Shown: positions 358 to 27,076 of the stretch, piece after piece
How the letters are laid out: every line of letters begins with the position of its first letter
Position numbering within the stretch: position 1 is the stretch's first letter
Source: Chiloscyllium plagiosum
Taxonomy: Eukaryota
Direction of reading: 5' to 3'
DNA: 64,000 bases
NCBI RefSeq assembly: GCF_004010195.1
Contig: NC_057758.1
Coordinates: 6,396,842 to 6,460,841, forward strand
The notes under the pieces: generated by a model
Database searches by the model: none
What the model was told of the DNA's origin: nothing
What the model saw: the letters and a program-made list of their open reading frames with translations, nothing else
Made by a program: the position numbers and the translations under genes

Positions 358-1265
358 TCAATGTAGTGACGGTCTACGTCCTGCTTTATAAAGATTGTGG
401 ATTGTCTCCATGTGTCAGACGTTACCTGGGGGCCATGGCAATGGCGGACCTACTGGTCATTATCCTCGATCTGATATTGAGACACATTCCAATTGTTTAC
501 CGGGAACAGTTTCATTTCCTGTTCTCCATCCCCGTGTGTAATATCCACGCTGTCCTGCTTTATGCAGCCACTGACTGTTCTGTCTGGTTCACCGTCGCTT
601 TTACCTTTGATAGATTTGTGGCCATTTGTTGCCAGAAACTGAAAAGAAAATACTGCATTGAGAAAATGGTGGCTGGTGTTCTGGGAACAGTGACTGTACT
701 GAGCTGTTTAAAGAACATTTTCTGGTATTTTATGCTCACAGGTCGGTATCGACTGAGGGACTATCCATGGTTTTGTGATGAAATATACTATGTTGGATTC
801 TCTCACGTGTGGGTCACAATCGAGTTCCTCCACAACATTTTAACCCCTGGTCTCCCATTTCTCCTGATTCTGATGCTCAATGTGTTCACAGTCAGACACA
901 TTTTAGTGACCAGCAGAACCCGTCGGAAACTCCGGGCTCACAGCAATGGGCACGGTCAGTGCGACACAGAAATGCAAAATCGAAAAAAATCCATTACTTT
1001 ACTGTTTGTGATCTCGGCCAATTTTATCCTGTTGTGGTCAACGTTAATGGTCTATTCTATTTGGCACCGAATGTCGAATATTAGGTATAGTTCTATGTAT
1101 TTAGATTGGTATGTGTTGAAATTGGGATACATGCTGCAGCTCCTCAGTTGCTGCACAAACACTGTGATTTATTCTGTGACCCAGACTAAGTTCAGACAGC
1201 AGCTGAAGCATGTCCTGAAATATCCTTTTACCCAAGTTCATGAAACAATCAAATCCAACCGTTAA
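358..1265 (+). CDS. GPR139-like: GPR139/GPR142-like class A GPCR, large coding exon (TM1 C-half to C-terminus); first coding exon lies upstream of the window
   Basis: Polypyrimidine tract and acceptor TTTATTTTCCTTGCCCACAG ending at 357, phase 1 into (V)NVVTVYVL. Uninterrupted frame to TAA at 1265. 7TM motifs: AMAMADLL (TM2), PVCN..FTFDRF (TM3, DRY variant), ECL2 Cys (PWFC), LPF (TM5), FILLW (TM6), LLSCCTNTVIY (TM7), helix 8 FRQQL. Family call is by recalled similarity; a paralogue, not necessarily the orthologue. Confidence 0.9.
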
Positions 1266-2581
1266 TCAATCCATTCGGAATTTTATCATTTCAATTCAGT
1301 GTTTCAGCGATGAATCACCCTGTCGCCATGGTAAGAGACTTAGGGTAGCGCTAATTTCTCTAACCTTATCCCACAGGAGGTTACAGGGACACAATTCATT
1401 GTTTCTCTCAACTGAGGAGCCAGTAAGAAAAGTCACCATTCCACTGACTGTGTTAATCACTTAATTTCTAAATACAAAAGTGCTCATTAAAAAGTGCCAA
1501 GAAGTAGAATGCATTAAATTGTGGTTTGTCTTCGTATTGAAGAAGCTGAGCTACAGAGGCAGATTCAGCCCAAATCCTGATCCTCAGGGAAGAGGAAAGG
1601 TGGAAACAGGGCCCGAGTTCAGAAGTTGGGTTTCAGGTATTCTGTCCTTCCTTTCACCTCTGGGATACCCACTCTGACCTAGCCTCAGCAATTTTCATTT
1701 CTCTCCCTTTGCCTGTCTTGCTCCATATCTACCTCCCAGTCTCACAATAACTGTTGCTCTCCTGCTCCCATTTTTGTCTCCTTCTGCTTATTTCTTTGGC
1801 AAAATTGATCGGAAAAAAAGCTGTCTGTGTCTCCAAAGACATTGTCTGCAGAAGGATACAACTGTGCAACGTCGGGGATTCACAGGGCTTGATGCATTAA
1901 CTCCTTCACCAAGAAAATCTGCCGCTTGTGTAGTAACGTTGGCATGTCAGCAGAGTGCTGCATTTTAACATTTGTACCGAAAGAAGGATAGAGAAACTCT
2001 CCGCACTGATCCATAATTTTTTAAATTCATCCATTCATTCAAACTTCCTTCCAGCAGGTCCCGTTGCATTTAGGTTTAGACCAGAGATGTACTGATATGC
2101 AAACACACAGAAATATACACAAGTAAAAACACACTGACACACTCAAACAGTCACTATGTTAAATAACTGAAAATGACCTGAGTTTTACTGTCTTTAGTAC
2201 AGTTTGTGTCACTCGAATAACTCTCAAATTTTCCAGATGAAATGTCGATGGGAATGTGGGACACAGTTGCGATGCTTCTTGCTCGGGAAGGATGTGAATG
2301 CGTTTAATAAGCTCATGATTATTTGTGGAATGAACAAACATCCACTCGGACAACAGGTCCATGTCATCCATTGATGTCAACCCGTGAAATGGATTGCGGT
2401 TCACCGTCAGAAACACATTAAAAGTAAACTCATTGACTTTACTGCACGTAGACCCATATCTTGAGTTAGTCTATGTCAACTTACTGTGTTCCAAATTATT
2501 GTGGGATAAATCTGTCTCCTGGATACAGAAGAACCTGTTCCCATACCTTATTGCATTGTACATGGTTTGGAACTGCAGCTT

Positions 2582-2606
2582 TGTGTGTGTGTGTGTGTGT
2601 GTGTGT
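2582..2606. repeat. (TG)n microsatellite
   Basis: About 12 perfect TG units. Confidence 0.95.
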
Positions 2607-3099
2607 ACCAACCCTTTTCATTGCCTCCCAGTTTCTCCCCTCTTTACTCCCCCAAAGGTGGTCCTCACTTTTACCTGTTCACAGTATTGCACCCCAAATC
2701 AAACCTTGTGCCCCCAAAACAATGCTCCCCTTCAAATATTACATTCCCCACGCACACAGACGTTGCCCCCACCTGCCAAATATTTTTCTATGAAATATCG
2801 CGTTTCACAGTTCGGTTTCCTCCCAAATATTGGTCCAAATGCATGCCCTCGGTCCCAATTTTGCAAGCTACTCACTTTGTGATTGCTCAAATATTGCTCA
2901 TTGTAAACGCTTGCACCCCCTTCAAATATTTCCTACCCTGAGTTTCACTTCAGAATTTTTGCCCCTCACAAAATATTTGAGCCTTTCAGATTCTAGTGGC
3001 CCCATAACATTTTCATTCTCCCCTATACCGTATATAAATGCCTTGTTGTCTCCCTCCGTGTATTTTCCTGCCCTTCGCTAAGTCCATACCCCAAAATCA

Positions 3100-3810
3100 G
3101 AGGGCTGCAGGACACAGGGTGTATAGCCCATGAGCCAGAGATTCACCGACCTTTCACTGACTGCCTAACGTCACGCAAGGAGAGCAGACAGGCCGTTGTG
3201 TGATCGAAAACGAAACTCAAGATGTCTAAGATCTGCTGCAGGACCTTTAGAAGGGGGAAGGATGAGCAGCAGGCTGTCGTGGTGCATAGTAGCATCAATG
3301 CTGTCGGTACAAAATCGGTATGAGTCCTACAAGCAGAAATAAGGGAGTTACAAAACGAGTTAAAAAGTAGGACCTCACAGATAGTAATGTCAGGGTTGCT
3401 ACCAGTGCCACGTGCTAGTCAGAGCAGAAGTGAAAGATTGGCAGGATGAACGAGTGATTTGATAGATGGTGCAGCAGGGAGGGGTTAAGATTTTTGGGAC
3501 ATTGGGACCAGTTCAGGGGGAGGTGGGTCTACTAAAAATTGGACAATCTCCTCTTGAACAGAAGTGGAACCAGTGTCCTTGGGGTGCTGTTTGGAACGCT
3601 GTTGGGAGTGTTTCAGCTAATGTGGCAGGGCTGTTGGAACCAAATGAGGATGTTAGTGGACAGGAAGGATGTACTAACTAAAGCCTATACCAAACTAAAT
3701 AGTGATCTCAGCGTGACTGAGGGGAAGAGTAGGCAGAGAGCAGATGTTGATCTCAAAGGGACAGGTGGAATCAGCTGCATTTGTTTTAATGTGAGAAGTG
3801 TCGTAGACTC
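3100..3810 (+). mobile_element. CR1 LINE ORF1 (SGNH/GDSL esterase-like) fragment, decayed
   Basis: Fragmentary translation AVVVHSSINAV..LKSRTSQIVMSGLLPVPRAS..WCSREGLRFLGHWDQF..LLLNRSGT, typical of CR1 ORF1; stops and frameshifts. Confidence 0.8.
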
Positions 3811-4409
3811 TCCAGCTATCCCATCTATATAACATCCAGAACCAAAGAATCCGATATAAGCAAATGTCTATATTCACGACAGACTTCCATACTTCCGTTA
3901 GCTCCTCTATACAACTCCCTTATTTTTGTAAATTGCACCATTCCATAGAATATTCCCTGTCTGTGTAAACCATCTCGGTCCTACCCTGAGAAGCCTTATG
4001 GCCCCTTTTTTCAATCCCTTCAGATCTCTCTGTATCTTCCTTGAATCCACAGACAGCAGTTTGTTTCATGTTATAACTCTTCTCGCTCACATGTTCCTAC
4101 CCGTCTCTGTGATATTGCTCAATTTCTGCAAATCTCGTTTGCTATCACCACACATTCCAATCCACCTGGTCGATGTTAGTTTATTGATCCGTTGTAGCAT
4201 TTTCGCATCTGGAGATGTCTCCAACTCGTAAATGCACTCTGCCCTTGTAACCTCCTCAAATAGTGCAGTGTTTGTGATAAAACACTCTTAATTTCTGTAA
4301 CCGCCTCCAGAGTAGCACTTCACATCTCTGTGTACTTGATGAGAATGCTGCAAACCTGCCTTCACAACTTTCACTAACTCTTTGAGATCCATGGACTGGA
4401 GTAGCTGGT

Positions 4410-4615
4410 GTCGGACTGGGGTGGATAAAGTTAAAAAGCAGACAACATTAGGTGGTAATGCAACAGATTTATTTGTAAGCAATAGATTACAGCGTAATGC
4501 TCCTGCCTCAGGTAGTTGTGACTGAACTAGCTGGTGGAGGAGCAGCACTCCGAAAGCTAGTGCTTCCAAATAAATTAGTTGGACAATAACCTGGTATCGT
4601 GTGAATTTTATCTTA
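4410..4615. mobile_element. Palindromic Penelope-derived miniature element, decayed
   Basis: Imperfect inverted arms around a central spacer. The right arm has CTGGTGG-A-GGAG CAGCA CTCC-GAAAGCTA, a degenerate hammerhead-like core. Confidence 0.6.
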
Positions 4616-5039
4616 AAGCTCATGCAGCCATACAATTCTCATCATGTTTGTTTCCTTCAATCCCGACACTTCTCCCTGTATCTGTGCACTGATCCAGTCC
4701 CTTCGAACCTACCTATTTCAGTAAACACCTGCACTTCCATCTACCACCCCAACGGTGTAATCTCCAGCCTCTATCATCCTCTTTTTCGCTGTAATTTTTA
4801 TTCCGAGAACTTATCTGTTCTCTAACCACCATCACTGCTCTCAGACCAGCCGAACTCTATAGCATCCTCCAGTCTCTACAACCCTGGTTTTCTCTGCAGG
4901 CTTCTCTCGTTTCTGCATTCCCCATTCTCACCGATTATAGATCCTTATTCAGGGGAACCAATATCTCAGTACTGACCTGCAAAAACACCGACAAATCATC
5001 AGTGTATCAATAAATTTGCCTCTGTGTCTAAGTTCTCCT

Positions 5040-5950
5040 TAGTTCAATTTCAATCTTATCCACCTCTTCTCATTGTGCGGATCAGTCTGTTGAATCTTCT
5101 CTAGACTGCCTCCAATGCAAGAACATTTCCCCTCTAGATAGAGGACCAAACCTCTTCACGGTATTCTTAGGGTGGGCTGGCTGGAGCCCTCTCTTATTGT
5201 TGCAAGGCTTCGCTATTGTTATTCTCCATTATCTTTGAAATCAATTCCAGGATTCCCTTTAACTTCTTTCTGACCTGCTGACCCTATATGCTATCTTTCT
5301 GAGATTTATACACAAGGATTTACAAGTTACTCTGCGGTGTAACTTTCTGAAGTCGATCTGAAACCACGAGGCGACATGAATAACAACCAAAGTGTTGGAA
5401 TGCTTGACAAACGATGTTATACAAATGATAACTGCACACTTCGAAACTAATGTAGTCAACACAGTCCGTAAGATCTTCAAATAATGGAGCAGAATTATTC
5501 TATTACGAGCACCGTGTCTGCTTCACCACTTGATTATGGCTGAGTTGTTTCCAAACCCCGTTCTTTCACTTATCCCCTGTAACCATAGTCCCCTGACTCA
5601 TCAAGAGTCTGTTTATCGCTGAGTTAAATACATTGATTTATTTCGCCTCCATAGCCGCCGAAGGCAGTGAGTTCCACAGATTCATCACTCTCTGGCTGAA
5701 TAAATTCCTCTACATCTCCATATTAAATGGTTCTCTCTTCGCTCTGAAATTGTGCCCTTAAGGCCCTAGTGTTTCCTGATAGTGGTAACAGCTTCACCAA
5801 ATTCACTCTCGTCAGGCCCCTCAGTATTATGTCAGGTTGAATGAGGTTTTGCCGCCGTCTCCTAAACTTCAACGAGTACAGAGCCAGAGTCTTCTACTGC
5901 TCCTCACGTGAGAGGCATTTCACCCCGGGATCTTTCTTGGAACCCGGTTT
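5040..5950 (-). mobile_element. CR1 LINE 3-prime fragments
   Basis: Antisense CR1 RT/3-prime UTR signatures (GAGTTCCACAGATTCATCACTCTCTGGCTGAA...). Confidence 0.65.
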
Positions 5951-8939
5951 CCCGTTTCCCTTCACAACCTTTGTCCAGTCTGTTAACATATAGCGTGTAC
6001 AGTGTCATCCCAGCATTGACCTCTGTGGAGCTCCAACTGTCATTGGCTGACTCCTTTATACCCACTCGTTGTCTTCTGTAGGTGAAATTTCATTTTACAA
6101 ACCCTTTGGATTTTTCTTAACCGTCTGTGGACAGTACACGATAAAAAAGAGAGGAATGGCCCTTTGGGATTTTCAGAAACTTTTCAACAAGATCCCACTA
6201 AATAAGCAAAAATGGGACATGTGTGATTGGAGGGATCATGCTGGCATGGATTGAGAATTCCTTCAGAGCCAGAAAACTAACAGGGAACGGATTAGTGTTT
6301 GATCCCTAACTATTCTCAAATTGATTTGGTGGGTGGACAAAATCTAATGTACCACATTTGTCGGTGATACATAATTACATGGGGGTGCGATTTGGATCGA
6401 GAAATCAAAGGGGACAGGACCAGCCCGTGAGTTTCCTTTTTTTCTAATATTCATTGATGGGATGTGGCCATCTCCAGCTCGGCCATAATTTCTTTTCCAT
6501 CTCTATTCAAGTGGAGGTGGTGGTGTTGAGCTGCGTTTCTGGACCACTGCAGTCCTCTGGTGTCGGGAGACACACATTGCGGGGAGAATGGAGTGTAGCT
6601 TTGAGAGGACCTTGGAAATGCTGGTGTTCCCGCGCACTTCTAACTCCTGTCCTTCCAAGTTATAGTTGTTCCGAGTTTGTGAAGAGCTGTTGAAAGGGCC
6701 TTCCTGAGTGAACTTAGCGCTGCTCATCGATCCTTTTCTTCTACTTATTAATTCATTCATCCACTCATTAATTCATTCACTCATTCGTGGACATGGCAAT
6801 TGCTGGCTCGGTCAGCGTTTATTGTTGATTTTGAGTTGTCCCTGAGAAATTGGTATTGAGCTCCCTTCTTGAGCCATTGCACCAGCTGTTTGAACTGTTG
6901 TTATCTGTGTACCCTCCAGCAGGCGTAACAACACTCCTCACGTCTGTAACTGCATACAGGCAATTCAGTTCTCCCTTTATATGTGACAGCCTCTCCACCT
7001 GCAACTCTTATCGTTCCTCACAAAATCTTACCTCCCCTATTCCCTTCTGTGCTATTGATTTCACAAATTATTTCTTATTTGTGTTTCAACTTCTGAACAG
7101 CCATAACTTCTTCCTTTCTAAATTTGTAACCCTCAGTGTCTGTAACCCTCCATTTTACTTTAAACAATAACAGTAGAAGTTCCCCTCCTCAAATCTCTAT
7201 TAATTACAGTGGCTGGATTTGGTAAATTGCCACTTTTCCCCCCTCCTTATACATCTCAGCTCATCCAGCCACTTCAATTCCACGATTTTGATGCTCTCTT
7301 CATGCTCTGACCAATGTACCCATTCACTCTAACTCCTCATATCCTGAGGGCCCTTGAACAACATCAATGCTCCAAATATCTATATATACCACAAGATATT
7401 GCAAGTCTTGTCACTAACATCCAACAATCTCCAGAACCAGCAACACTCCATGGCTGTAACTTTACATTTGCTGATGTCTGCATTTCTCTGTAAGCAGCTC
7501 ACAAGAAGATTTTAGACTCTGCAAAGCTCTGTCACCAACAAGCCACCAAGTCTCTATTTATTTTGTGTTCATCAGTGCCTGCAAGTTTCCCTGTGTCATT
7601 ATGTAACCTGCTTTACGCACTACAAGTCTGCCTACCTCTCCAGATAACCATTTCCATCCCGTAATACCTATTTAATCATTGTAACTACCTCTGTCCACAG
7701 CATTCCTCCTCTTTTGCATTGTCTTCCAGGTACAACGGTGATCCTGTGAGGAAGCAGGTGGGAATGAGCCATTATAAATTTCAGCTGAGGCTTGCGGCCG
7801 ACAATTAATGGGAGTCATAAAAAAACAGAGAAGCTGAGAACGAGAAGCACAGAGGGAGAGAATATAAATCAGAAGCGAGTATGAAGGCCGACTGGGATTT
7901 GGAGTTGGAGAAGCAGCAGAGCAGGAGGTCTCATTCAGTACCGAATCACAGAGCGAGTGAAAATGTGAGGGAGCAACGTGGGGCAGGACCTTGAAGCTAA
8001 TTGACGAATAGTAGTTATAGAGGCAGCAAGTTGGGAGGATATTAATCAGTAATGAGGATCGGATCCCAATCGTACTTGGGAGTCACAGAGACGGTGACGC
8101 TGCGAGGAAGCAGAGTGATGAGGGAGCTGGTGGATTATACGCACCTGGGAGTCACAGAGACACCTTTCTTCTGCTTTGAGCTGGCCGCACTGAGATTGAA
8201 AGTTGGGCAAAGAGGCGTCACAGAAAAAAGCTGAAAGTTCAGAAGCTGATAATACACCATCATTTACAAATGCCTGTAGATTGCTATAAATTAGCAAATA
8301 TATTTTTTTCAAATTCGGAAAGAAGGGTTGAGCTCAGAAACAAGTGGATGAACAAAAGTCAGAGCCAAAATGGTAACAGGTGACCGAGCGGAGATTGATT
8401 TCCCTGTGGAGTATTTGGGAGGGATTGAAACTATCTTAGCGTGCAAATGGGATTCTAAAAAAGAAAGTAGATGACACTAACAGGATACAACCAATACCTG
8501 GAGATGCAGCTGGTACTAATTTATAAAAACAGGTTTAACAGTGGCAGATGAGGTACGAAATAAGGTCTACATCTTAGGTGCATGAATACGCTAAGTTTTG
8601 AGAGTTACAGATGCAGAGTGTTGAGTGGAAATCTGATGTACTAATAATTGAGAGCTGGCTCAAGGATCGGCAGCACTTGGTGTTTAATATTGTTGGGTAT
8701 AAAGTGTTCTGAAACGATAGAAAGAAAGGGAAATGACGATGGGTAGCAGTATTGGTTTAGATTAGCGTCAGTTAAGGAGTCCAAGCACTGAATGAATTTG
8801 GCTGGAGTTACAGAACCATAAGTGAACAGTTGTACTGTGAGGTACAGAGCGTAGGTCACCAACCATTGAAAAAGATGGAGAAAAGAAACATGCAGGGACA
8901 TTTGAGAATGATGACAATCCTACAGAGTAGTTATGCTCA

Positions 8940-9478
8940 GAAACATAAGTGATCCAGATCTACACTTGGATGCTTGTGGTACAGTGTCATGAGAGGCGAG
9001 TGTTCGTGGATTGCATGAAGGAGTACTCACTGAAGGAGTATATGCCCAGACGAAGAGAGCATGTACTATTGGACCTGGTCATTGGGAAAGAGGTGGTTCA
9101 AGTGGATTCAGTGTCAGTCGGAGAACGTTTTCGTGTACAGCAATCATTTTATTCTAAAGTTCAGGATGATGGTCGACAATAATAACCAATAATTGAGAGT
9201 AGGAAACATTATTTGACTGATAGCGGCCTTCAATGAGACAAGTATGGAGATGGGAAAATTTGACGAGAACACCGAGTTGGTCAGATAAAGAAAAAACTGA
9301 GCAATGGGCTTCATTCAAAGAGTAGGTGGTTTGGTTTCAGTCGAGGATTGGTCCCTCAAATAGGAAAGGCAGGATAACCAAACCCAACATTTCCAGGATG
9401 AAGAAGAACAACCATAGAATCGGTGTCAGATAGAGAATAAAATTGGGAACCAAGAGGAATAGAGAGAAGATATATGGG
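8940..9478 (+). mobile_element. CR1 LINE ORF2 endonuclease/linker fragment
   Basis: ..PRRREHVLLDLVIGKE..VSVGE.. matches the CR1 APE-endonuclease C-terminal motif (PTRxxxxLDLV). Confidence 0.7.
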
Positions 9479-9492
9479 TAAACTGAAAGCCA

Positions 9493-9680
9493 GGAGAAAG
9501 TGAGGACTGCAGATGCTGGAGAACAGATTTGAAAATGTCGTGCTGGAATCGACGTTTCCGGCATAAGCCCTTCTTAAGGAATGAGATTTCTGAAGAAGGG
9601 CTTATGCGCGAAACGTCGATTCTCCTGCTCCTCGGATGCTGTCTGGCCTGCTGCGTTTTTCCAGCACCACATTTTTCAAC
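9493..9680. mobile_element. Penelope-derived fold-back miniature element with hammerhead-like cores and 14-bp TSD
   Basis: Inverted arms AATCGACGTTTCCGGCATAAGCCCTTCTT / AAGAAGGGCTTATGCGCGAAACGTCGATT. Flanked by TAAACTGAAAGCCA (9479-9492) and TAAACGGAAAGCCA (9681-9694). Its right arm matches the 3-prime end of the Penelope copy at 21860-21945. Confidence 0.8.
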
Positions 9681-10099
9681 TAAACGGAAAGCCAACACAG
9701 GGCTGCCCCACCCAATACTGAGCGTGCAAGAAGATGGAGTCAGGCTAGGTCGAAAATGGAAACAGGATTCATAACTAGAAATCGTTATCTGCGAGTAGCT
9801 CAGATACACTTGGATATTTTATAGATGTATGTTCAATAGAAACACTCTAGAGAGGATTAGATGATTATTGATGCAAAAACAAATATGTAAGGATATGGGG
9901 TCATAGGAAATCATTACTGAGAAATGAGTTCTTTTGACGAGCTGGTGTAAACAAGATGGGCCAAATGACATCCTTCTGTGCCACTGTGTAGTTCATATGA
10001 TGTCATGAGAGTCTTCCAAATCCAATAATGTCCTGTCTCTTGAAACTCATCGATATGTATGATGCATTCTAATCTCGGCAAACGACATCAGCAAGTGCG

Positions 10100-10600
10100 T
10101 TGCTCTTTATCTCTGTAACTCATCCAAGCCATATAAATTTTCTTCCTCTGGGAAACCCTTACAAATCCTATTATCCTCACTGTCTACAAAATATTCCCTA
10201 AGTATTTATAGCTCTCCCCTTCTCTGCAACTACTCTGATCTATCGAAACCTAAGCTTTGCAATTTCCTCCACTCCACAAAACAATCACCTTTACTAACTC
10301 CCTTTTGACCTGACATGCCGCATGTCATCTTAAATACCTCGGGCAAGTGCAGTATTCATTATATCTTCAACTTTCTCCAGCACCTACAACTCTTCCCATC
10401 GGGTTTGTTTGCTGCAATCCCCTCAATTGTCCCTGAAGTGTAATTTAGCACAATGGCCAACCAGCTGTATAACGTCCTCTAGTCCCTGCACCGCTCCCGA
10501 TTCTGTAACCGATGTCTGCCCCTTCACAGCTCATTATCTCTACAACTCCAGATTCTAAATCCATCCTGATCTGTGGAAACACGGCCAGGCCTCTCTCACT
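10100..10600 (+). repeat. CT-rich decayed L2-like 3-prime tail repeats (similar patches at ~3830-4330, 4660-4930, 6930-7700, 11520-11580, 46700-46900)
   Basis: Recurrent ATCTCTGTAACCTCCTCCAG-like motifs; the family assignment is from memory and tentative. Confidence 0.4.
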
Positions 10601-16678: not shown

Positions 16679-17178
16679 NNNNNNNNNNNNNNNNNNNNNN
16701 NNNNNNNNNNNNNNNNNNNNNNNNNNNNNNNNNNNNNNNNNNNNNNNNNNNNNNNNNNNNNNNNNNNNNNNNNNNNNNNNNNNNNNNNNNNNNNNNNNNN
16801 NNNNNNNNNNNNNNNNNNNNNNNNNNNNNNNNNNNNNNNNNNNNNNNNNNNNNNNNNNNNNNNNNNNNNNNNNNNNNNNNNNNNNNNNNNNNNNNNNNNN
16901 NNNNNNNNNNNNNNNNNNNNNNNNNNNNNNNNNNNNNNNNNNNNNNNNNNNNNNNNNNNNNNNNNNNNNNNNNNNNNNNNNNNNNNNNNNNNNNNNNNNN
17001 NNNNNNNNNNNNNNNNNNNNNNNNNNNNNNNNNNNNNNNNNNNNNNNNNNNNNNNNNNNNNNNNNNNNNNNNNNNNNNNNNNNNNNNNNNNNNNNNNNNN
17101 NNNNNNNNNNNNNNNNNNNNNNNNNNNNNNNNNNNNNNNNNNNNNNNNNNNNNNNNNNNNNNNNNNNNNNNNNNNNNN
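16679..17178. other. Assembly gap (500 N)
   Basis: Run of N. Confidence 1.
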
Positions 17179-17224
17179 CATCGGAGTTTAGAAGGTTGAG
17201 GGGAGATCTAATAGAAATTAATTC

Positions 17225-17750
17225 CCAGCGTTCACACTTTCTAAGCCTTGCAACATCACGAACGTTGACACCTGGGAGGCAACAAACCAATCGTGTGTTA
17301 CTTTCTTTCCCACACAACCTCCGATCGCTTCTCCTTACTATGGACTCACCAATGACGAAAGCTCTGCTCCTCTTCCCCTTCCCCACTGAGCAGCAGGGAG
17401 AGACACTGCACCAGCGACCTCTTCCACATTATCTGCGATTGGTTCGTCTTTCCCCCAACAATATGGAAAATGGTATAGTTGTTGCAGAAAATCACCACAG
17501 AAGATCCCTGCACTGCCTAATCGTTCCCTTCCTTAATCCTGACGTTAACCTATCTACCATCGTCGCGTTGCTGTGGAGTAACTAACTCCCTGTATCTCCT
17601 CACAATAACTGCCTCCGCCTTCTGAATGACCCGACGTTCATCCAGCTCCACCTGCTGTTCCCTAACTTGGTTCTCGAGGCACTGGAGTTGGGTGCAATTC
17701 TCACGCATGAAGTCAGCAATGAGCGTGAGGTGACTTACTTACCAAACGTG
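17225..17750 (-). mobile_element. CR1 ORF1 fragment
   Basis: Minus-strand RAFVIGESIVRRSDRRLCG..TRLVCCLPGVNVRDV is the CR1 ORF1 esterase block I. Confidence 0.8.
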
Positions 17751-18116
17751 CAGGAATTCTTTGAACCATCCTTAGTGTATAAAAATAATCATTTTCCCCC
17801 ATTTCAATGTACAGCATAAAACAAAATAAATATTTATTTTAAATGACAATGTATTCCAACAGACCAAGAGTGTTGCTCTCGGTTCTGCGAGCTAAAAAGT
17901 GATTCATACATTCTGTAATTTTCTGAGTTTAGATTGACAAGCTCATTTCAGTTTAACAAAAAAGATATCTGGAATTTTAGGGATAAATGAAGTCATCTGC
18001 TCAGAAACTGAGCATGGAATAAACAATCCTATTAACGGAACCCAGGTGTTGATGATGAATTAATGTCAACTCCATAATTGATGAGTAAAGTCTCTCAGGG
18101 ACGTCTCTCTTTGCTG

Positions 18117-18123
18117 CATAAAA
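18117..18123 (+). promoter_or_regulatory. TATA-like box (CATAAAA) upstream of GPCR gene 2 exon 1
   Basis: About 60 nt upstream of the ATG at 18180; positional inference only. Confidence 0.3.
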
Positions 18124-18179
18124 GGATTCCTGGCTTAACTGCAAAGAGAAACCCTCGACCCATTGGCAGAAAATGCGTC

Positions 18180-18324
18180 ATGGATTTCAATGATTTCTAT
18201 TCATCCATTCTTGAAGTATCCTCCGAAGCATTTTCATGGATTAACGGGGCCTCCTATATCAAAACTTTAATTCAGGAATTCGAGAGGATATACTACCCAA
18301 TACTTGCTGCTGTCAGTGTCCCCC
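18180..18324 (+). CDS. GPR139-like: First coding exon (N-terminus + first half of TM1) of GPR139-like gene 2; splice donor appears mutated
   Basis: ATG 18180 gives MDFNDFYSSILEVSSEAFSWINGASYIKTLIQEFERIYYPILAAVSVP. YYP....(G/S)VP parallels GPR139 TM1 (YY..LL..GLP|AN). It ends in phase 1, matching the acceptor at 22155, and is followed by ATAAGT where GTAAGT is expected. Confidence 0.75.
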
Positions 18325-19004
18325 ATAAGTGCTAAGTGTCCTTATCAAATTTCTAAACCGTGTTGTACCCTTCACTTATTGCCCTGAACAGTTTCCTGAT
18401 CCACATTTCTCGTAGATGGATAGTTGATTCGTCCTTACTCCCCTTGGTATATATGTTGAAGTGTAAAGCTATGTTAGACCAGACTACATTACACTGTCAA
18501 CGTAGTCATTACCGGACACGAATTCGAATGATTCTCTGCTTCTTATCCTCGTGGCTATGGATCTAAGTATCTTCGAGAAAATGTGGAAGGATTACCTGAA
18601 ATCCTCTGCAGTAGTTGGCTATATTTGTTTGATAGACCATGAATATTTGAATCAGAATTCTGCTTCAGTAGATTCAATATATTTAAGTATTTAATATAAG
18701 AGGATAGCGTATCAGGCAAATAGACACACGCACACACTCTCTCACAGATTCTCGCTCTTGCAAAGCTGCATACACCCACTATCACTCACACAAAACCTTT
18801 CAGATGCTTTCCCAAATGCACAGAGAAATTCTCTCTCGTTTTCGAACTCTTTATCACACACAAGCACAAATACAAACACACTCACACACGCACACAGACG
18901 TGAGCTTGCACATAGACACACATGCACAATCAATGGCAAACACTCATATATTCAGATAACCTCACGGAGAGACATTGTCAGAATGTATCCTGTGTCGTAA
19001 TATG

Positions 19005-20560
19005 TGATGCTGGAAAACGCAGATGTTCTGGCAGCATGCGAAGTGGAGGAGAGTTGAAGTTTTGAGCATCAGCCGTTCATCCCGAATGAGGGGGTGGCCC
19101 AAGGGGCCTGAGAGATAAATGGGTGATGCTGGGGAAGGTAACTGAGGATGCCATTTTTAGATGGAGGTGGGCGATGATGGAGATTGTTCGGAAAGGAGGT
19201 TGGAGCAAATTGGTGGGAAGAAAAATGGAGAGTTAAGTCAGTTCAATAAGGGTCTGGAAGGTTGGCTCTGGAATTGGGTGGCGAGTGGGATGGGTGGAAA
19301 GTGAAGAAACTTGTGAAATCTGCATCGATCCCATGTGGTTGGAGGGTGCCATGGGCGGAAGTTGAGGCATTCTTCCTAAAGGCATCGGATGCCTAGAGTC
19401 TGCCGGTGGAGGAGGTCCAGGACTTGCATGTTTTTGACGGTTGGGAGGTGGAGTTACCATGGACGGCAGTGAGTTTGAAGGTGTAGGCGCAAGTTTTCCT
19501 CTTTCTGTGGTGTCAAGGAAAGGTGCCAGGTGTGGACGATGCGGTGGTGGATGCTGTGGCCCTCACAATGGAGTCTCTGTGGTTATCATCTCTGTGGAAT
19601 GCAGGTAGTGGTGGAAAGTGAAATGCATCCCAGGTGGCGGACATGGCTCAAGATGTTGAGTTGAATGTGAAGATTGGTAGGATGCAAGTTGAGGAGCGGG
19701 GAGTTCTGTCCTTGATCCGATTGAAGAGGTAGGGTTCAAGGGCAGAGGTGAGCGAATTGGAGGCGATGTACTTGAGAGCATCATTCACAGCGGGAGGGAA
19801 TTTGCAGTCATTGAAGAAGAAGGCCCATCCGGGATTTTCTTTGGTGGAATTAGTCCTCCTGGGACAAGATGCGGTCGATGATTTGGAAGGAATGGATAGC
19901 GTTTTGACAAATGCCAAGATGTGACGAGGTGTCCTCCAGGAAGCTGTGAGAGGCAGTGAGCTTGACGTCGATGTCTGTTTTGTGTCTGTCAACGGAAATG
20001 AAGATGGAGAGGTCCAGGAAGGGGAGAGAGGTGCCCGAGACGGTCCAGATGAATTTGAAGTCAGGTACAAAGTACTGGTGAAATTGATGAACTGTTCGTG
20101 CTGCTCGCAGGAGCATGAGCTGGCGCCGATCGAGTCATTGATGAGGCAGAGGAAATGGAGGAGATTGATGTCAGTTTCGCTACGGCAGATGAACTGTTCC
20201 ACGTACAAGAGAACGTTGCATGTACAGCTGGGGCCTCTGCGGATACCCATGGTTACTCCTTTTCCCTGGAGGAAGTGGAAGAATTGAATCGAGATTTTTT
20301 TGAGGATGAGGTCCAGTTCAAAAAATCAGACGAATGTTTCAGTGGAAGTATGCAATTTGGGTCATCGTTTGACGACGAAATGGTGGGCCTGGAGGCCTTC
20401 GTCTTGAGAGAAGAATGTCTAAAGATGAAGTCTGCGAGCCAGAGAAACGGAAGTCATGGAGGCGGTGGCATCCCAAACATACATCGGGAGATCCTAGATC
20501 AAGCTGGACAGATTGATGCCAAGGTATGCTGGGGTATTTTCTTTGTGGAAGGAGAAGGAT
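19005..20560 (-). mobile_element. Penelope-like retroelement (RT region + 3-prime end), decayed
   Basis: Minus-strand MGIRRGPS..YVEQF..FLCLINDSIGASSCS.EQFINF / FKFIWTVSGTSLPFLDLSI..TDIDVKLTASHSFLEDTSSH..CQNAI are Penelope RT motifs. The terminus at 19005-19080 is the reverse complement of 21860-21945. Confidence 0.85.
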
Positions 20561-20719
20561 GAGGCATTAGGTCAACCAGAGCAGTCAGGTTTGTGCATTT
20601 TGGGTCGAAGGTAGAACAGGGCAGTGCGATGTCCCCGGACTATGGGTTTTGAGGCTTGATTGGTAGCCAAAGGCAACAGTATCTTTCTCGGCTGTGCCTG
20701 CCTCTTCCTCAATTACAGG

Positions 20720-21945
20720 GAACAGTGTGTTTTCCACAGCTGCACCGGCACCATTTCCAGCCATTTCCTCTGTATCAACGCCACATCGTGCTCCCACCAG
20801 GAGTTTTAAAAGTTCATGAATTTTATTAACATGCTATTCCCTGACCACAAATTCAACTGGATCATCTCGCCCACATCCCTTTCTTTCCTGTACCTCTCCG
20901 TCTTCGTTTCCGTTCACAGACTCAACACAAAGCAATTTCCCCCACCATTTCCCCCTCCAGTACCTCTCTTCCTCTTTTGTGCATCTGTCCTTGAAGCGCA
21001 CCCATCCAATCACAGCAAGCACAGAGCCCTCCTGGACCTCACCTTCTGTCCCAACAACCAGCAAATACAACGCGGCATCCTCGACCATTTCGACTACCTT
21101 CATACAGACCACATCACCAGAAATATATTTCTCGTCCCACCCGGACTTGCGCGCCACAGGGGCCATTCACTCCAGGACTCCTTCGTTCGGTCCAAGACCT
21201 CCAGCAACCGACCATCCTCTCCCAGCATCATGCCTTGCCACCGGACAAAATACAAAACCTCCTCCCACACCTCCATACTCACCACAGTCCGAAGAATCCT
21301 TCCACAACCAACAGAGATTTAACTTGACTTCAACACATATCATATACTGTGTCCGTTGCTGTCGATGTGCTCTCCTCCAACTGAAGCAGACAGAATGCTT
21401 ACTTGCAGAATGGTGCAGAGATCATCTCTGAGACACATGCACTAAAAACCCTATTGCCCTGTAGTCTAACACTTTAAGTGCCACTCCAACTCCGCCGAGG
21501 CTATGCACATCCTGGGCCTCCACGACACCAAACATCTAGCCACCCAACACGTGGGCGAATAGTGCCGCATCATCCACTTTTGGTCCCTGCAACCATACAG
21601 GATAAATGTATATTTCACGCGTTTCATTAATCGCCATCATCCCTCTTTCCAATTTATTCCAGAGCCAACATTCTGACTCGACACCAAACTCTGAACTGTC
21701 CAAACTGTCCATCTTCCTTCCTCCCAATTCCGTTCAGCCTCCTTTCTGACATATCACCATAATACCTCATATCCAGCTACCTATCACATCCCCCGCTACC
21801 TTCCCAACAGTCCATCCCGTTACATTGATGTCTCAGCCCATTGGGCTATTCCCTCATTGCTGATGAAGAGTTTATGCTCGAAATGTCGACTCTCCTGCTC
21901 CTCGGATGCTTCCAGACTGGCTGTGCATCTCCAGCGCCACATGTT
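20720..21945 (+). mobile_element. Penelope-like retroelement (RT C-terminus, GIY-YIG endonuclease, 3-prime end with hammerhead-like core), decayed
   Basis: FMNFINMLFPDHKFNWIISPTSLSFL; QQRFNLTSTHIIYCVRCCRCALL..TE..L.E....HL (GIY-YIG with CxxC); CTGATGA-AGAGTTTATGCTC-GAAATGTC at 21860-21887. Confidence 0.85.
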
Positions 21946-22155
21946 CCATCACTTTCTCCTGCAACTATGTATACAATAATTAGCTACGTCAGAGTAGAGA
22001 ATGCGAATTTGGAAGGTACTGTTTGATGATTATGCCTTCTGAATGGAAAACACAGTCATAACTGTGCACCACTTATGGATGAAGTGAAAATTGAATATTG
22101 CAGTTTTTTCCCTCATCAATCGTTAAGTGTGATATCGTAGTTTCCTTTTCCACAG

Positions 22156-23060
22156 TTAATACAGTGACGATTGTGATCCTGTTCCGTGGGAAGTGTGAAC
22201 TCTCCAGATGTGTCACTCTCTATCTGATGGCCATGGTAGTCGCAGATTTATTGGTGGTCATCCTTGATCTGATATTGAGACATATTCCAATTGTTTATCC
22301 AGAAGTCTTCACTTTCATGGAGGATATAGATGTATGCAACATTCATGCTGTCCTGCTTTATGCAGCATCCGATTGCTCTGTCTGGTTCACAGTCACATTC
22401 ACCTTCGACCGCTTGGTTGCCATTCGTTGTCACACGTTCAAAAATAAATATTGTAATGAGAAAACAGTGGCGGTGGTTCTCGGAACAGTGACTGGACTGA
22501 GCTGTTTAAATAATATCAGCTGGCATTTTATGTATAACAGTAATTATCGTTTATCTAATCATCCTATGTTTTGTGGTATAGAATTGAGTGATGACAACTT
22601 AGAATTATGGGCCAGAATTGAAATTGTTCACTACATTCTCTCACCCTGTCTCCCATTCGTTCTGATTCTGCAGCTCAACATTGTTACCGTCAGACATATT
22701 GTAGTGAGCAGCAGAGCCCGCAGGAGACTCCGGGCTCACAACAATGGGGAGGGTCCCAGAGACACGGAGATGGAGAACCGAAGAAAATCAATTGTTCTTC
22801 TGTTTCTGATTTCAGGCAACTTCATCCTGCTGTGGGCAGTGTTTACCGTGTATGCAATGCTTGAACGAATGGATAATCTGGGCTATTTTATTTATATGCC
22901 TGCGTATGTCCAAGAATTAGGATTTATTCTACAGCTCCTGAGTTGCTGCACAAACACTGGAATCTACGTCGTGACACAGAATAGGTTCAGAGGACAATTC
23001 AAAAATTTGGTGATATATCCCTTCAGTCTGATAACTCATAGAATCAAAAGGCAAAATTAG
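22156..23060 (+). CDS. GPR139-like: GPR139/GPR142-like GPCR gene 2, large coding exon 2
   Basis: Acceptor TTTCCTTTTCCACAG ends at 22155 (phase 1, same position as gene 1). Open frame to TAG at 23060 with the same 7TM motifs (AMVVADLL, VCNIHAVLLYAA, FTFDRL, LPF, FILLW, LLSCCTNTGIY). Confidence 0.9.
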
Positions 23061-23832
23061 TACCTGCCTCTGGTTTCCATTGTATACCCTGACTTCCAAC
23101 GATGATTTAGATTAATTGACATATGATATTCCAAATCTGGTCGGATTGGAGCCTTAAACAACATGAGCAGTATATCCACGGACTTTAATTCTAGCACACT
23201 CAAAATGAATGTTGACATTTCATTTTTCTTCCTACCCTCCAAGTGAAATTGCAAACCAACCTGAAGAAAATCAAGAACCAGGGCTCAAAGACTATCAGCG
23301 CGTAAAAACTCTGACGTTGTTTCTAATTTAGAACATAGTCTATGTCCCTGTTCCTCCAATCAAATTGCATCTCATCCTATTTTTCCACATTGTTTTCCAT
23401 TTTAAAATTGCAGTTGGCTCTCTTGTTGGGAAAGCTTGGACAGTAATTTGGTTATTAAATGTTGATGGACACAACAATTAAATGTAGATATGGATAAAAT
23501 ATGTTGGTTTTTAGACAATCATTAGACAAAATGATTAATAATATTGTCTGCAGCCACAACCTTTCCGATCAACTCGCCCTCCTATCGAAACCTTCCAAAT
23601 TTAGAATATACTTTGCGCATGTAAACATCCTATGAACGTTCATAACCTCAAATTGTATGTCCTTGTGCTCGATTAGTCACTTTATTGTCCACTCTCTCCG
23701 TCTTCCCTCGTCTTTCAGCAGTCTCCCATCTCGTTAACACTCCTGCCAGTCGACAATGGTGCATGATTGACCTCTTGGAACTTTTCCAAAGTGTCGTTCC
23801 CCTGTCTGTACACTAGTGGTCTCCTCCTGTCT

Positions 23833-24655
23833 NNNNNNNNNNNNNNNNNNNNNNNNNNNNNNNNNNNNNNNNNNNNNNNNNNNNNNNNNNNNNNNNNNNN
23901 NNNNNNNNNNNNNNNNNNNNNNNNNNNNNNNNNNNNNNNNNNNNNNNNNNNNNNNNNNNNNNNNNNNNNNNNNNNNNNNNNNNNNNNNNNNNNNNNNNNN
24001 NNNNNNNNNNNNNNNNNNNNNNNNNNNNNNNNNNNNNNNNNNNNNNNNNNNNNNNNNNNNNNNNNNNNNNNNNNNNNNNNNNNNNNNNNNNNNNNNNNNN
24101 NNNNNNNNNNNNNNNNNNNNNNNNNNNNNNNNNNNNNNNNNNNNNNNNNNNNNNNNNNNNNNNNNNNNNNNNNNNNNNNNNNNNNNNNNNNNNNNNNNNN
24201 NNNNNNNNNNNNNNNNNNNNNNNNNNNNNNNNNNNNNNNNNNNNNNNNNNNNNNNNNNNNNNNNNNNNNNNNNNNNNNNNNNNNNNNNNNNNNNNNNNNN
24301 NNNNNNNNNNNNNNNNNNNNNNNNNNNNNNNNNNNNNNNNNNNNNNNNNNNNNNNNNNNNNNNNNNNNNNNNNNNNNNNNNNNNNNNNNNNNNNNNNNNN
24401 NNNNNNNNNNNNNNNNNNNNNNNNNNNNNNNNNNNNNNNNNNNNNNNNNNNNNNNNNNNNNNNNNNNNNNNNNNNNNNNNNNNNNNNNNNNNNNNNNNNN
24501 NNNNNNNNNNNNNNNNNNNNNNNNNNNNNNNNNNNNNNNNNNNNNNNNNNNNNNNNNNNNNNNNNNNNNNNNNNNNNNNNNNNNNNNNNNNNNNNNNNNN
24601 NNNNNNNNNNNNNNNNNNNNNNNNNNNNNNNNNNNNNNNNNNNNNNNNNNNNNNN
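23833..24655. other. Assembly gap (823 N)
   Basis: Run of N. Confidence 1.
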
Positions 24656-25500
24656 GGGCCAATGGGCAGAGAAGTGGCAGATGGAATTTAATTCAGATAA
24701 ATGCGAGGTGCTGCATTTTGGTGTAGCAAATCTTCGCAGGACTTATACACTTAATAGTAAGGTCCGAGGGAGTGTTGCTGAACAAAGAAATTTGGAGTGC
24801 AGGTTTGTGGCTCCTTGAAGGTGGAGTCGCAGCTAGATAGGATAGTGAAGAAGGCGTTTGTTATGCTTTCGTTTATTGGTCAGAGCATTGAATACAGGAG
24901 TTAGAATGTCATGTTGGGACTGGAAAGGACATTGGTTAGCCAAGTGTTGGAACATTGCGTGCAATTTTGGTCTCCTTACTATCGGAATGATGTTGTGAAA
25001 CTTGGAATGGTTCAGAAAAGATTCACAAGGATTTTGCCAGGGTTGGAGGATTTGAGCTAATGGGAGAATCTGAAAAGGCTGGGGCTATTTTCACTGGAGT
25101 GTCGAAGCTGATGGGTGACCTTATAGAGGTTCACAAAATTATTTGAGGCATGGTTAGGATAAATAAGCAAATTATTTTCCTAGGGAGTTGGGTAGTCTAG
25201 AACAAGAGTGCATAGTTTTACGATGAGGGGGGGAAAGATATAGAAGAGACCTAAGGGGCAATTTTTTCACACAAGATGTGGTACTTGTATGGAATGAGCT
25301 ACCAGATGAAGTGGTGGAGGCTGGCAGAATTGCAATATTTTGGATGTTTATATCAATAAGAGGGCTTGGATGGATATGGGCCGATTGCTGGCAGGTGGCA
25401 GGCGGAACAAGATTGAGTAGGGACAGCTCGTCGACATGGACGGGTTGGACCAAAGGGTCTGTTTCCATGCTGTACATCTCTATGACTCTCTGACTCTATG
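24656..25500 (+). mobile_element. CR1 LINE 3-prime portion (duplicate of 29220-30060)
   Basis: WAEKWQMEFNSDKCEVLHFG.. RT C-terminus and the CR1 3-prime tail TCTATGACTCT. Confidence 0.9.
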
Positions 25501-26258
25501 TTCTTATACATAAAACATTTCTGCTGCGTTTTACCCAAAATTCATTGTTCATAGGCAAATGTATTTAGCTTATACCCCTTAAAACTTAGCGTTATACAAA
25601 AAATCATTCGTGCAGATTTGAAATGAGTAATTGATGCAGCAACCTCTGCCATTTGTGCCAGAGTGTTCCAAACATTTTGAACTCCTTGCACGTAGCAGCT
25701 CTTCCGAACATCTCGCCCAGTCTCCGCATGAATCACAGATCATATCCTCGATTGTAGAGCCCCCAACGTGTGGATATGCCATCTCTTTAAATGTTCCATT
25801 TGATTGATGATTTCGATCAGATGACACCACAGCTTTCGAACTTCTCCACAAAGCAGGTCATATTTTCTGTAATCTTCTGAATAACATCAGTCTTGAAGTC
25901 CAAGAAATAGTGTCGTTAAGTTATGCTACATTCCTTCCCAAGGCTCTGGATACTTCTAGCGTTAAAAAATTATCCAGGTGCGCCCTTGCAATGTTCAGTT
26001 TGACAAGTGTATGCACTAGCTAACGGAATTAATGAATTGAACAGTTCGTTGCGTGTTGTTGACATACACAGAAGAGAAGATCGTACTTTGTCCAAGTTCA
26101 ATATATGCTTCCCAAGGTGTGCTGATCACATCTGACCGAAGTACTCCAAGTGGGATTTAATCCAAGTTATATTTGTGCAAAAAAAGGCGACTTCCAAGTT
26201 GCTGAGACAAATACAGCCACATAGTTAAAACATGTTAGGTATTACAGAAAAGTGACCA

Positions 26259-26419
26259 NNNNNNNNNNNNNNNNNNNNNNNNNNNNNNNNNNNNNNNNNN
26301 NNNNNNNNNNNNNNNNNNNNNNNNNNNNNNNNNNNNNNNNNNNNNNNNNNNNNNNNNNNNNNNNNNNNNNNNNNNNNNNNNNNNNNNNNNNNNNNNNNNN
26401 NNNNNNNNNNNNNNNNNNN
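26259..26419. other. Assembly gap (161 N)
   Basis: Run of N. Confidence 1.
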
Positions 26420-27076
26420 TTCGACCGCTTGGTAGCCATTCGTTGTCACACTTTCAAAACTAAATATTGTAATGAGAAAACAGCGGCGGTGGTTCTCGGA
26501 ACAGTGACTGGACTGAGCTGTTTAAATAATATCAGCTGGTATTTTATGTATAACAGTAATTATGGTTTATCTAATCATCCTATGCTTTGTGGTATGGAAT
26601 TGAGTGATGACAACTTAGAGTTATGGGCCATAATTGAAATTGTTCACTACATTCTCTCACCCTGTCTCCCATTCGTTCTGATTCTGCAGCTCAACATTTT
26701 TATCGTCAGACATATTGTAGTGAGCAGCAGAGCCCGCAGGAGACTCCGGACTCACAACAATGGGGAGTGTCCCACAGACACGGAGATGGAGAACCGAAGA
26801 AAATCAATTGTTCTTCTGTTTCTGATTTCAGGCAACTTCATCCTGCTGTGGGCAGTGTTTGCCGTGTATGCAATGCTTGAACGAATGGATAATCTGCGCT
26901 ATTTTATTTATGTGCCTGCGTATGTCCAAGAATTAGGATTTATTCTACAGCTCCTGAGTTGCTGCACAAACACTGGAATCTACGTCGTGACACAGAATAG
27001 GTTCAGAGGACAATTCAAAAATTTGGTGATATATCCCTTCAGTCTGATCACTCATGGAATCAAAAGGCAAAATTAG
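26420..27076 (+). CDS. GPR139-like: GPR139-like GPCR gene 3 (partial, 5-prime part hidden by gap); recent duplicate of gene 2
   Basis: Open frame FDRLVAIRC...IKRQN*, collinear with 22404-23060 at offset 4016, about 20 nucleotide differences and no indels. Confidence 0.85.
   Translation, partial: FDRLVAIRCHTFKTKYCNEKTAAVVLGTVTGLSCLNNISWYFMYNSNYGLSNHPMLCGMELSDDNLELWAIIEIVHYILSPCLPFVLILQLNIFIVRHIVVSSRARRRLRTHNNGECPTDTEMENRRKSIVLLFLISGNFILLWAVFAVYAMLERMDNLRYFIYVPAYVQELGFILQLLSCCTNTGIYVVTQNRFRGQFKNLVIYPFSLITHGIKRQN

What the first reader, a model, noticed from the sequence alone, without database searches (positions are those of the whole stretch)
358..27076. Tandem cluster of GPR139/GPR142-like receptors with conserved TM scaffold and divergent extracellular loops: candidate shark chemosensory-type repertoire
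Seen: three same-strand paralogues within 27 kb; genes 1 and 2 share a phase-1 intron in TM1. Genes 1 and 2 are nearly invariant in the TM2/TM3/TM7 and ICL3 blocks (DLILRHIPIVY, CNIHAVLLYAA.DCSVWFTV.FTFDR, LQLLSCCTNT). They are almost unalignable in ECL2 (LTGRYRLRDYPWFCDEIYYVGFSHV vs YNSNYRLSNHPMFCGIELSDDNLEL) and ECL3 (IWHRMSNIRYSSMYLDWYVLK vs MLERMDNLGYFIYMPAYVQE), with a basic/aromatic versus acidic character switch. Known: mammalian GPR139 and GPR142 are single-copy receptors activated by aromatic amino acids (L-Trp, L-Phe), and cartilaginous fishes have few canonical OR genes. Inference: a lineage-specific birth-and-death receptor family diversifying in ligand specificity, possibly an uncharacterised chemosensory, nutrient-sensing or immune receptor system.
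Basis: partly seen in the sequence, partly recalled or inferred. Interest (0 to 1): 0.8.

Follow-up and report, generated by a model that had tools for sequence, protein, structure and literature searches.

The report
Thousand-copy shark receptor gene family
The three receptor gene pieces here belong to a family with well over a thousand copies in this shark, whose outer loops change fast while the core stays fixed, so it is likely an overlooked set of chemical sensors in animals thought to have few, though where it is active is untested and none of these three copies is shown to be complete.

Summary
The observation largely holds. The three same-strand pieces are exon 2 of two-exon class A GPCRs. 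They are not GPR139 or GPR142: both are separate single-copy genes in this genome, about 20% identical. They belong to a sister lineage, seen as about one gene per species in amphibians, sturgeon and reedfish, that expanded in sharks and rays and also has a chimaera member. Two motif counts give 1,159 and 1,168 loci; I extrapolate about 1,700-2,100, roughly 40-50% with an intact exon 2. In the gene-1 subfamily the core is under purifying selection, and 16 sites, all extracellular, show dN/dS above 1 (2.4-3 after controls). The GPR139 polar amino-acid site is not kept. Locally the picture is weaker: exon 1 of gene 1 was not found, gene 2 has a broken splice donor, and gene 3 is a truncated 97% copy of gene 2. 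First exons outnumber second exons about 3:1 in the slice sampled. Tissue and ligand are unknown; a chemosensory role is my best guess (about 0.5), immune sensing the main rival. My literature searches found no description. This scan found the same family earlier on other DNA.

The parts
358..1265 (+). Gene 1, exon 2 (mid-TM1 to stop, 301 aa), open frame; AG acceptor at 356-357; exon 1 not found
18060..18123 (+). Putative core promoter of gene 2: TAATG box, degenerate O/E-like site, TATA-like box (motif names recalled; function inferred)
   Evidence: same block in close paralogues L082, L083
18180..18324 (+).
18325..18330 (+). Broken splice donor of gene 2 (AT instead of GT), with an in-frame stop 3 codons later
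   Evidence: 13 of 13 related exon 1s have GT; all contigs laid there from 3 DNA runs read G
22156..23060 (+). Gene 2, exon 2 (300 aa), open frame; AG acceptor at 22154-22155; intron about 3.8 kb
22404..26258 (+). First copy of a duplicated block (22404-23832 and 24656-26258, gap 23833-24655)
   Evidence: 96.7% to 26420-27848 and 97.1% to 29220-30821
26259..26419 (.). 161-nt assembly gap that cuts off the 5' part of gene 3
26420..27076 (+). Gene 3: TM3-to-stop fragment, 93% aa identical to gene 2; no 5' part or exon 1 seen

Best explanation
These pieces are members of a very large family of two-exon class A GPCR genes in cartilaginous fishes that likely grew from one GPR139-related gene, turns over by duplication and decay, and is likely a chemosensory receptor repertoire whose variable outer surface would bind many different external molecules. 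Shown: copy number, gene structure, separation from GPR139/GPR142, a constrained core and fast-changing extracellular sites. Inferred: working members couple to G proteins (D3.49 in 61 of 61, R3.50 60, N7.49 60, Y7.53 61 rows). Inferred: ligands are larger than single amino acids, probably peptides or other waterborne molecules, because the variable sites lie on ECL1, ECL2 and the tops of TM6 and TM7 and the GPR139 polar site is gone. Inferred: a shared core promoter drives expression in one kind of sensory cell. Untested: tissue, ligand, one receptor per cell. In this window gene 2 is likely a young pseudogene or null allele, gene 3 a fragment, and gene 1 possibly intact.
For: Counts: 1,159 and 1,168 exact motif hits, reversed controls 0; 56 of the first 100 overlap, giving about 1,680 as a union and about 2,000-2,100 by capture-recapture. 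Median nearest-neighbour distance among 71 intact copies is 6.6%, with one pair under 1%, so most are not haplotype duplicates. 1,381 homologue clusters; all 120 listed are sharks. Skate, ray and chimaera members. Tree: family plus the amphibian/sturgeon gene at SH-aLRT 99, GPR139/142 apart; no conserved one-to-one shark orthologue of the amphibian gene, best hit 37% of 119 scored. Selection: core dN/dS 0.27-0.36, extracellular 0.72-0.94 over 16 disjoint pairs; site model on 32 pairs gives 16 sites above 1, all 16 extracellular, and still 2.4-3.0 with 2dlnL 24-31 after allowing site-rate variation and multi-nucleotide change. A shared promoter element plus TATA-like box in 6 of 9 family promoters against 2 of 2,376 background windows, absent from the single-copy sister gene (post hoc). 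Family-like reads in one single-cell RNA run. Context: the catshark has 2 OR, 6 OR-like and about 32 V2R genes (PMC11979771, section 13).
Against: No tissue or ligand data. The O/E test fixed in advance failed in distant subfamilies: 1 of 7 promoters against a 12% background (exon 1 found in 7 of 20 stretches, one of the 7 being the single-copy control). No region has dN/dS significantly above 1, and a model with faster sites at dN/dS = 1 absorbs most of the raw likelihood gain. The gene-2 subfamily shows no loop excess (0.41-0.56 against 0.38-0.49). Only 14 of 30 and 11 of 30 motif-picked loci have an intact exon 2 (overlapping samples, 3 and 4 touch gaps). The top 50 genes of the catshark brain-plus-olfactory library held no GPCR (PMC11979771). 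Positive selection on outer loops is also typical of immune receptors (own knowledge). Monophyly of the family alone has support of only 72.
Confidence: 0.5

Rival explanations
1. The family is an innate immune or barrier-sensing repertoire on leukocytes, mast-like cells or skin, gill and gut sentinel cells that recognises microbial or parasite peptides, like rodent MRGPRs or FPRs (comparison recalled).
For: Hypervariable aromatic and charged extracellular sites with 7-16 residue types each fit an arms race; fast turnover; a variable N-terminal repeat with glycosylation sequons; the a priori olfactory promoter test failed.
Against: No GPR139-named gene in the four supplementary files of a shark immune-cell atlas (PMC11372145; weak, since members may carry LOC names). 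Known relatives are neuronal or neuropeptide-type receptors (PMC12208981).
Confidence: 0.27
2. The copy number mainly reflects neutral segmental duplication in a repeat-rich genome; a few members work, most are drifting debris and the loops are merely unconstrained.
For: About half or more of the exon 2s are broken; surplus first exons evolve near neutrally; loop-average dN/dS is near 1; none of the three window genes is shown complete.
Against: Core dN/dS 0.27-0.36 across many recent duplicates (intact copies only); a site class above 1 that survives controls and is confined to the outside; subfamilies shared by sharks and batoids.
Confidence: 0.13
3. The receptors sense internal or reproductive peptides (gut, endocrine, sperm or oviduct recognition).
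For: The GPR139 clade is related to invertebrate MIP/sex-peptide, proctolin and FMRFamide receptors (PMC12208981); catshark chemoreceptor genes are often expressed in testis, stomach or rectal gland.
Against: A fixed internal ligand does not predict over a thousand loci with hypervariable surfaces (inference).
Confidence: 0.1

Closest known systems
GPR139 and GPR142 (L-Trp/L-Phe-responsive class A orphans; PDB 7VUG, 9M42)
   Same: Best solved-structure hit of the family profile (E 5.9e-14); same phase-1 intron before Asn1.50; H5.43, W6.48 and an aromatic 3.33 kept in the window genes; no Pro at 7.50.
   Different: 18-20% identity; true orthologues are separate single loci on C21 and C24; R6.51, N7.38 and E3.32 replaced; Cys3.25 present where GPR139/142 lack it; a family+GPR139/142 clade is rejected at p-AU 0.034; over a thousand loci against one.
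GPR210-type orphans of fish, gar and coelacanth (Rinne et al. 2019, PMC6504862)
   Same: That paper lists three subtypes beside GPR139/142; my tree also shows three such lineages, and the family joins the amphibian/sturgeon one (reedfish).
   Different: The passages hold no mention of sharks or cartilaginous fish (0 hits); about one cluster per species in bony vertebrates; which named subtype matches was not tested.
Birth-and-death chemoreceptor repertoires (OR, TAAR, V1R, V2R)
   Same: Hundreds to thousands of clustered copies, many pseudogenes, constrained core, variable ligand face, shared promoter block.
   Different: Different ancestry (Pfam 7tm_1 in 60 of 60, no olfactory-receptor family hit); split coding region; variation concentrated on outer loops; expression unshown.
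Clustered protocadherin or UGT1-type variable first exons (recalled)
   Same: Several same-strand first exons lie upstream of one second exon at C8:6.67-6.76 Mb.
   Different: Many first exons have no second exon nearby and evolve near neutrally; splicing unshown.

Membership tests
Class A (rhodopsin-like) GPCR | 7tm_1 domain above the curated cut-off and a seven-helix fold | tested here: met
   64-65 bits against a 30.5 cut-off; 60 of 60 members; low-confidence model (pLDDT 64) whose listed matches are class A GPCRs, TM about 0.6
Class A (rhodopsin-like) GPCR | N1.50, D2.50, D/ERY, C3.25, P5.50, W6.48, NPxxY | tested here: met
   57-61 of 61 rows for each; P6.50 and P7.50 mostly absent
GPR139/GPR142 orthologues | Groups with GPR139/142 in a tree; no separate orthologue in the genome | tested here: not met
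   Separate single-copy orthologues; quick tree; AU p 0.034
GPR139/GPR142 orthologues | Trp/Phe site F3.33, H5.43, W6.48, R6.51, N7.38 (PMC5430874) | tested here: not met
   Window genes Y, H, W, L/F, Y/F; the polar pair is lost; positions read from a 20%-identity alignment
Wider GPR139 clade (GPR139/142/GPR210-type) | Nearest solved relative is GPR139 and the TM1 phase-1 intron is shared | tested here: met
GPR210A/B or the third subtype of Rinne 2019 | Orthology to the named coelacanth Ensembl proteins | not tested
   Those identifiers could not be matched to fetched proteins
Chemoreceptor repertoire (functional kind) | Large birth-and-death family | tested here: met
Chemoreceptor repertoire (functional kind) | Diversifying selection on the ligand face | tested here: met
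   Gene-1 subfamily only; not seen in the gene-2 subfamily
Chemoreceptor repertoire (functional kind) | Lhx2/Ebf (O/E) promoter sites as in OR genes (PMC5608512; consensus letters recalled) | tested here: inconclusive
   One-mismatch sites in 15 of 27 gene-1-type upstream windows against 6 of 29 and 7 of 26 controls (homologous, not independent); 1 of 7 in distant promoters; post hoc degenerate element in 6 of 9
Chemoreceptor repertoire (functional kind) | Sparse expression in sensory neurons and activation by external ligands | not testable with these tools
   One run of unknown tissue gave 166 paralogue reads

The most novel reading that the evidence does not exclude
Cartilaginous fishes have a fifth, GPR139-related class of vertebrate chemoreceptors with over a thousand loci, and it adds diversity combinatorially: surplus promoter-plus-first-exon cassettes with hypervariable N-termini are chosen alternatively and spliced to shared second exons, as in clustered protocadherins. 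The chemoreceptor class alone I put at about 0.5; the combinatorial splicing on top of it is much less likely.
Probability: 0.1. Interest if true: 0.95.

Novelty: new variant of a known kind. Interest (0 to 1): 0.74.

Why it matters
Sharks and rays are described as having few olfactory receptors and relatively few GPCRs (PMC11979771; PMC8455134). A family of this size, hidden under the automatic label 'probable G-protein coupled receptor 139', overturns the second statement whatever it does. If it is expressed in sensory cells it makes the question of how sharks smell with a few dozen receptors directly testable, and adds an independent origin of a vertebrate chemoreceptor repertoire from a neuropeptide-type lineage. 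If it is immune, it is a very large variable innate receptor system. Existing multi-tissue RNA-seq can decide this.

Tried and rejected
Single-sequence search of solved structures did not reach GPR139 (3 weak hits); only the profile did. RNA: no RNA holder listed. Run X6 gave 0 reads on gene 1 and X5 gave 0 on exon 1 of gene 2, which is no test. The runs differ from the window at fixed sites, so they are probably from a close relative, and cannot say whether the AT donor is a true mutation or an assembly error. Haplotype duplication as the source of the count: rejected for the gene-1 subfamily, not excluded for gene 3. Assembly gaps as the whole cause of surplus first exons: rejected for one gap-free 80-kb stretch with 3 first exons and no second exon; 3 other 40-kb stretches had small or unsized gaps and stay open. 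Selection on surplus first exons: weak. Gene conversion among paralogues: no decay of linkage with distance over 54 synonymous sites (p 0.63). Strict O/E consensus: 0 hits in all three sets and in the 7 promoters. A tree-based codon site test was not run (no codeml or HyPhy on the machine); my site model is my own pairwise implementation. The folded model is too poor to place pocket residues. Supplement searches for expression gave nothing usable; the catshark multi-tissue supplement was unreadable. No complex was folded because no partner is claimed.
Full report
Observation. The window lies at G000:C49:6396842-6460841. It holds three same-strand matches to one receptor and no fourth: 358-1265, 22156-23060 and 26420-27076. 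The motifs checked are at the stated genes. Genes 1 and 2 are 60% identical and pass Pfam 7tm_1. The first two pieces are second exons that begin with an AG acceptor, two bases and Asn1.50; 107 of 114 full-length loci showed this layout, including the GPR139 and GPR142 orthologues (some loci were fetched twice, and three picks, L107, L139 and L164, are visibly misplaced). The loops are divergent but alignable: ECL2 9 of 29 identical without gaps, ECL3 region 11 of 30, TM3 25 of 28 (strings). The charge contrast is real for this pair but is not a rule of the gene-1 subfamily.

State of the three genes. Exon 1 of gene 2 is at 18180-18324, 3.8 kb upstream. Its donor reads AT. All 13 related first exons with this ending have GT (exon 1 was found in 10 of 12 stretches fetched for close paralogues, plus L016, L018 and L027), and all contigs laid there from three DNA runs read G (probably a close relative, so mutation and assembly error cannot be told apart). 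Exon 1 of gene 1 was not found in 100 kb upstream by a protein or a DNA profile; a 1,100-nt gap touches the window start. Gene 3 starts in TM3 after a 161-nt gap inside a block duplicated at 97% and bounded by gaps, with 20 of 654 coding bases different from gene 2. The 264 kb around the window also hold one open exon 2 at -90.5 kb, an inverted 92% copy of gene 1 with a stop at -16 kb, and several decayed fragments at +136 to +163 kb.

Size of the family. Protein searches of the genome scored 131 of 8,041 and 131 of 8,402 candidates, and every scored one matched below 1e-109. Searches with distant relatives found further subfamilies, many on small chromosomes C37 and C43-C50. Two exact motifs about 550 nt apart gave 1,159 and 1,168 hits, reversed controls 0. 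In the slice listed by both, 56 of 100 hits overlapped, which extrapolates to about 1,680 as a union and about 2,000-2,100 by capture-recapture (the slice is C1 to C8:46 Mb, not a random sample). Intact exon 2 with acceptor: 14 of 30 and 11 of 30 motif-picked loci. Among 71 intact gene-1-type copies the median nearest-neighbour distance is 6.6%, with one pair under 1%. Outside this genome there are 1,381 clusters; all 120 listed are sharks, and all but one are named 'probable G-protein coupled receptor 139'. Look-ups of 30 library proteins added skates, rays and one chimaera protein.

Ancestry. The family profile finds human GPR139 as best solved relative (E 5.9e-14). But GPR139 (one hit, C21) and GPR142 (C24, 55% to it) exist separately and are 18-20% identical to the window genes. 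Two more apparently single-copy relatives lie on C26 and C98156. A quick tree of 76 rows joins the family with a gene found as about one cluster per species in amphibians, sturgeon and reedfish (SH-aLRT 99); the family alone has support 72. That gene has no one-to-one shark counterpart (best 37% of 119 scored), so the family is likely its co-orthologue group. An AU test rejects family plus GPR139/142 at p 0.034 (unnamed long-branch row left out). Rinne et al. (PMC6504862, passages) named three GPR210-type orphans beside GPR139/142 in fish, gar and coelacanth, without mentioning sharks; the match to these is plausible but untested. Genes 1 and 2 each group with whale-shark and zebra-shark proteins, so their split is old.

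Selection. Sixteen disjoint pairs from 32 intact gene-1-type copies gave dN/dS 0.27-0.36 in the core and 0.72-0.94 outside; no region was significantly above 1. A pairwise codon site model on 32 pairs from 71 copies (pairs under 1% or over 17% apart left out) favoured a class at dN/dS about 6 for 6% of sites (2dlnL 647), with 16 sites, all in ECL1, ECL2 or the TM6-ECL3-TM7 top. Allowing faster sites and multi-nucleotide changes cut this to 2.4-3.0 with 2dlnL 24-31 and the same 16 sites; synonymous changes at these sites were 19 of 512, not raised. The copies were chosen for intact frames and high score. Four pairs of the gene-2 subfamily showed no loop excess. Of the GPR139 Trp/Phe site (PMC5430874, passages) the window genes keep H5.43, W6.48 and an aromatic 3.33 but not R6.51 or N7.38, and they have Cys3.25. 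Amino-acid sensing in the manner of GPR139 is therefore unlikely (inference).

Expression and promoters. One single-cell RNA run of unknown tissue (about 2% read, 12.96 million records) gave 166 reads on gene 1 at 80% likeness, none at 99%. One pile lies just past the stop on the strand expected for mRNA in a 3' library (library type assumed); another lies on the opposite strand and covers intron bases. Some paralogues seem transcribed; gene 1 itself is not shown to be. The O/E test fixed in advance was positive only within the homologous gene-1-type set and failed in distant subfamilies (1 of 7). By eye, then by a post hoc pattern, a degenerate O/E-like element before a TATA-like box occurs in 6 of 9 family promoters, in 2 of 2,376 background windows, and not in the single-copy sister gene. 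This suggests shared regulation but names no tissue. Lhx2 and Ebf act on OR promoters and enhancers (PMC5608512, passages); the consensus letters are recalled.

A surplus of first exons. A pattern for the end of exon 1 with its donor gave 1,418 hits, against 525 for gene-1-type exon 2 (it detects 51 of 71 known copies). On C8:0-9.7 Mb 62 first exons face 17 second exons. A gap-free 80-kb stretch holds three first exons and no second; at C8:6.67-6.76 Mb five same-strand first exons, two pairs of them near-identical, precede one second exon. Across 70 sampled first exons, 40 were intact by a strict rule, 28 broken and 2 gapped; in 28 pairs exon divergence was 0.101 against 0.119 in the intron, with 13 frameshifting gaps in 3,748 nt against 25 in 4,112. 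They look mostly like drifting orphans, but alternative use of a subset is not excluded.

Literature. Searches for GPR139 or GPR142 with shark or cartilaginous terms, and for shark GPCR expansions, listed no paper that describes this family (listings and abstract starts only). Passages of four shark and ray genome papers did not mention it (PMC11979771, PMC8455134, PMC10620051, 10.1101/2025.06.08.657570). That preprint's figure and supplementary table of tandem clusters and the catshark supplement could not be seen and may name it; subscription journals are not covered. PMC12208981 (passages) links GPR139 to invertebrate neuropeptide receptors; PMC12294341 (passages) was irrelevant. Earlier notes of this scan report the same family in at least 7 genomes; they are not independent support.

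Verdict. A real, very large and apparently undescribed GPCR family with a constrained core and a positively selected outer face, of which this window shows one possibly intact copy, one likely broken copy and one fragment. A chemosensory role is the most likely reading (0.5), immune sensing next (0.27). Novelty: new variant of a known kind. Interest 0.74.

Noticed in passing
G000:C8:0-9.7 Mb; L272-L291; L304-L311: First exons (promoter, N-terminus, upper TM1) outnumber second exons about 3:1; a gap-free 80 kb holds three and no second exon; five precede one second exon at 6.67-6.76 Mb. Cause unexplained.
   Followed up: partly
L242-L271, L312-L351; P0010, P0037: Gene-1-type first exons carry a 14-residue tandem repeat, many units with an N-glycosylation sequon, in variable copy number (11 units in L271), followed by a hypervariable stretch of about 25 residues.
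   Followed up: partly
L265, L357, L363 and other gene-1-type promoters: A conserved Fox-like box (name recalled) lies upstream of the O/E-like element, also in distant subfamilies.
   Followed up: no
G000:C8: Gene-1-type copies are spread along a 107-Mb chromosome (74 motif hits in the first 46 Mb), whereas older subfamilies sit densely on small chromosomes C37 and C43-C50.
   Followed up: no
L102 (C26:36.6 Mb), L103 (C98156): Two further apparently single-copy GPR139-related orphans, matching coelacanth/teleost and anchovy proteins; likely the shark GPR210-type genes.
   Followed up: partly
G000:C49:6380038-6380937 (L032): Inverted 92% copy of gene 1 with a stop in TM6, head to head with gene 1; no first exon found between them.
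   Followed up: partly
window 300-634: Single-cell reads from paralogues pile on the opposite strand over the acceptor and TM1-TM3, including intron bases: possible antisense or unspliced RNA.
   Followed up: no
window 29020-29379 (+), 45990-46721 (-): Reverse-transcriptase remnants, likely of LINEs (Pfam RVT_1).
   Followed up: yes
window 39655-41848 and 61884-63998: A 2.2-kb direct repeat at 90% identity, unrelated to the receptors.
   Followed up: no
P0183, P0313, P0314: A bamboo-shark gene model joins a coiled-coil piece (one cluster member is named RING-type) to a family exon 2; probably an annotation artefact.
   Followed up: no
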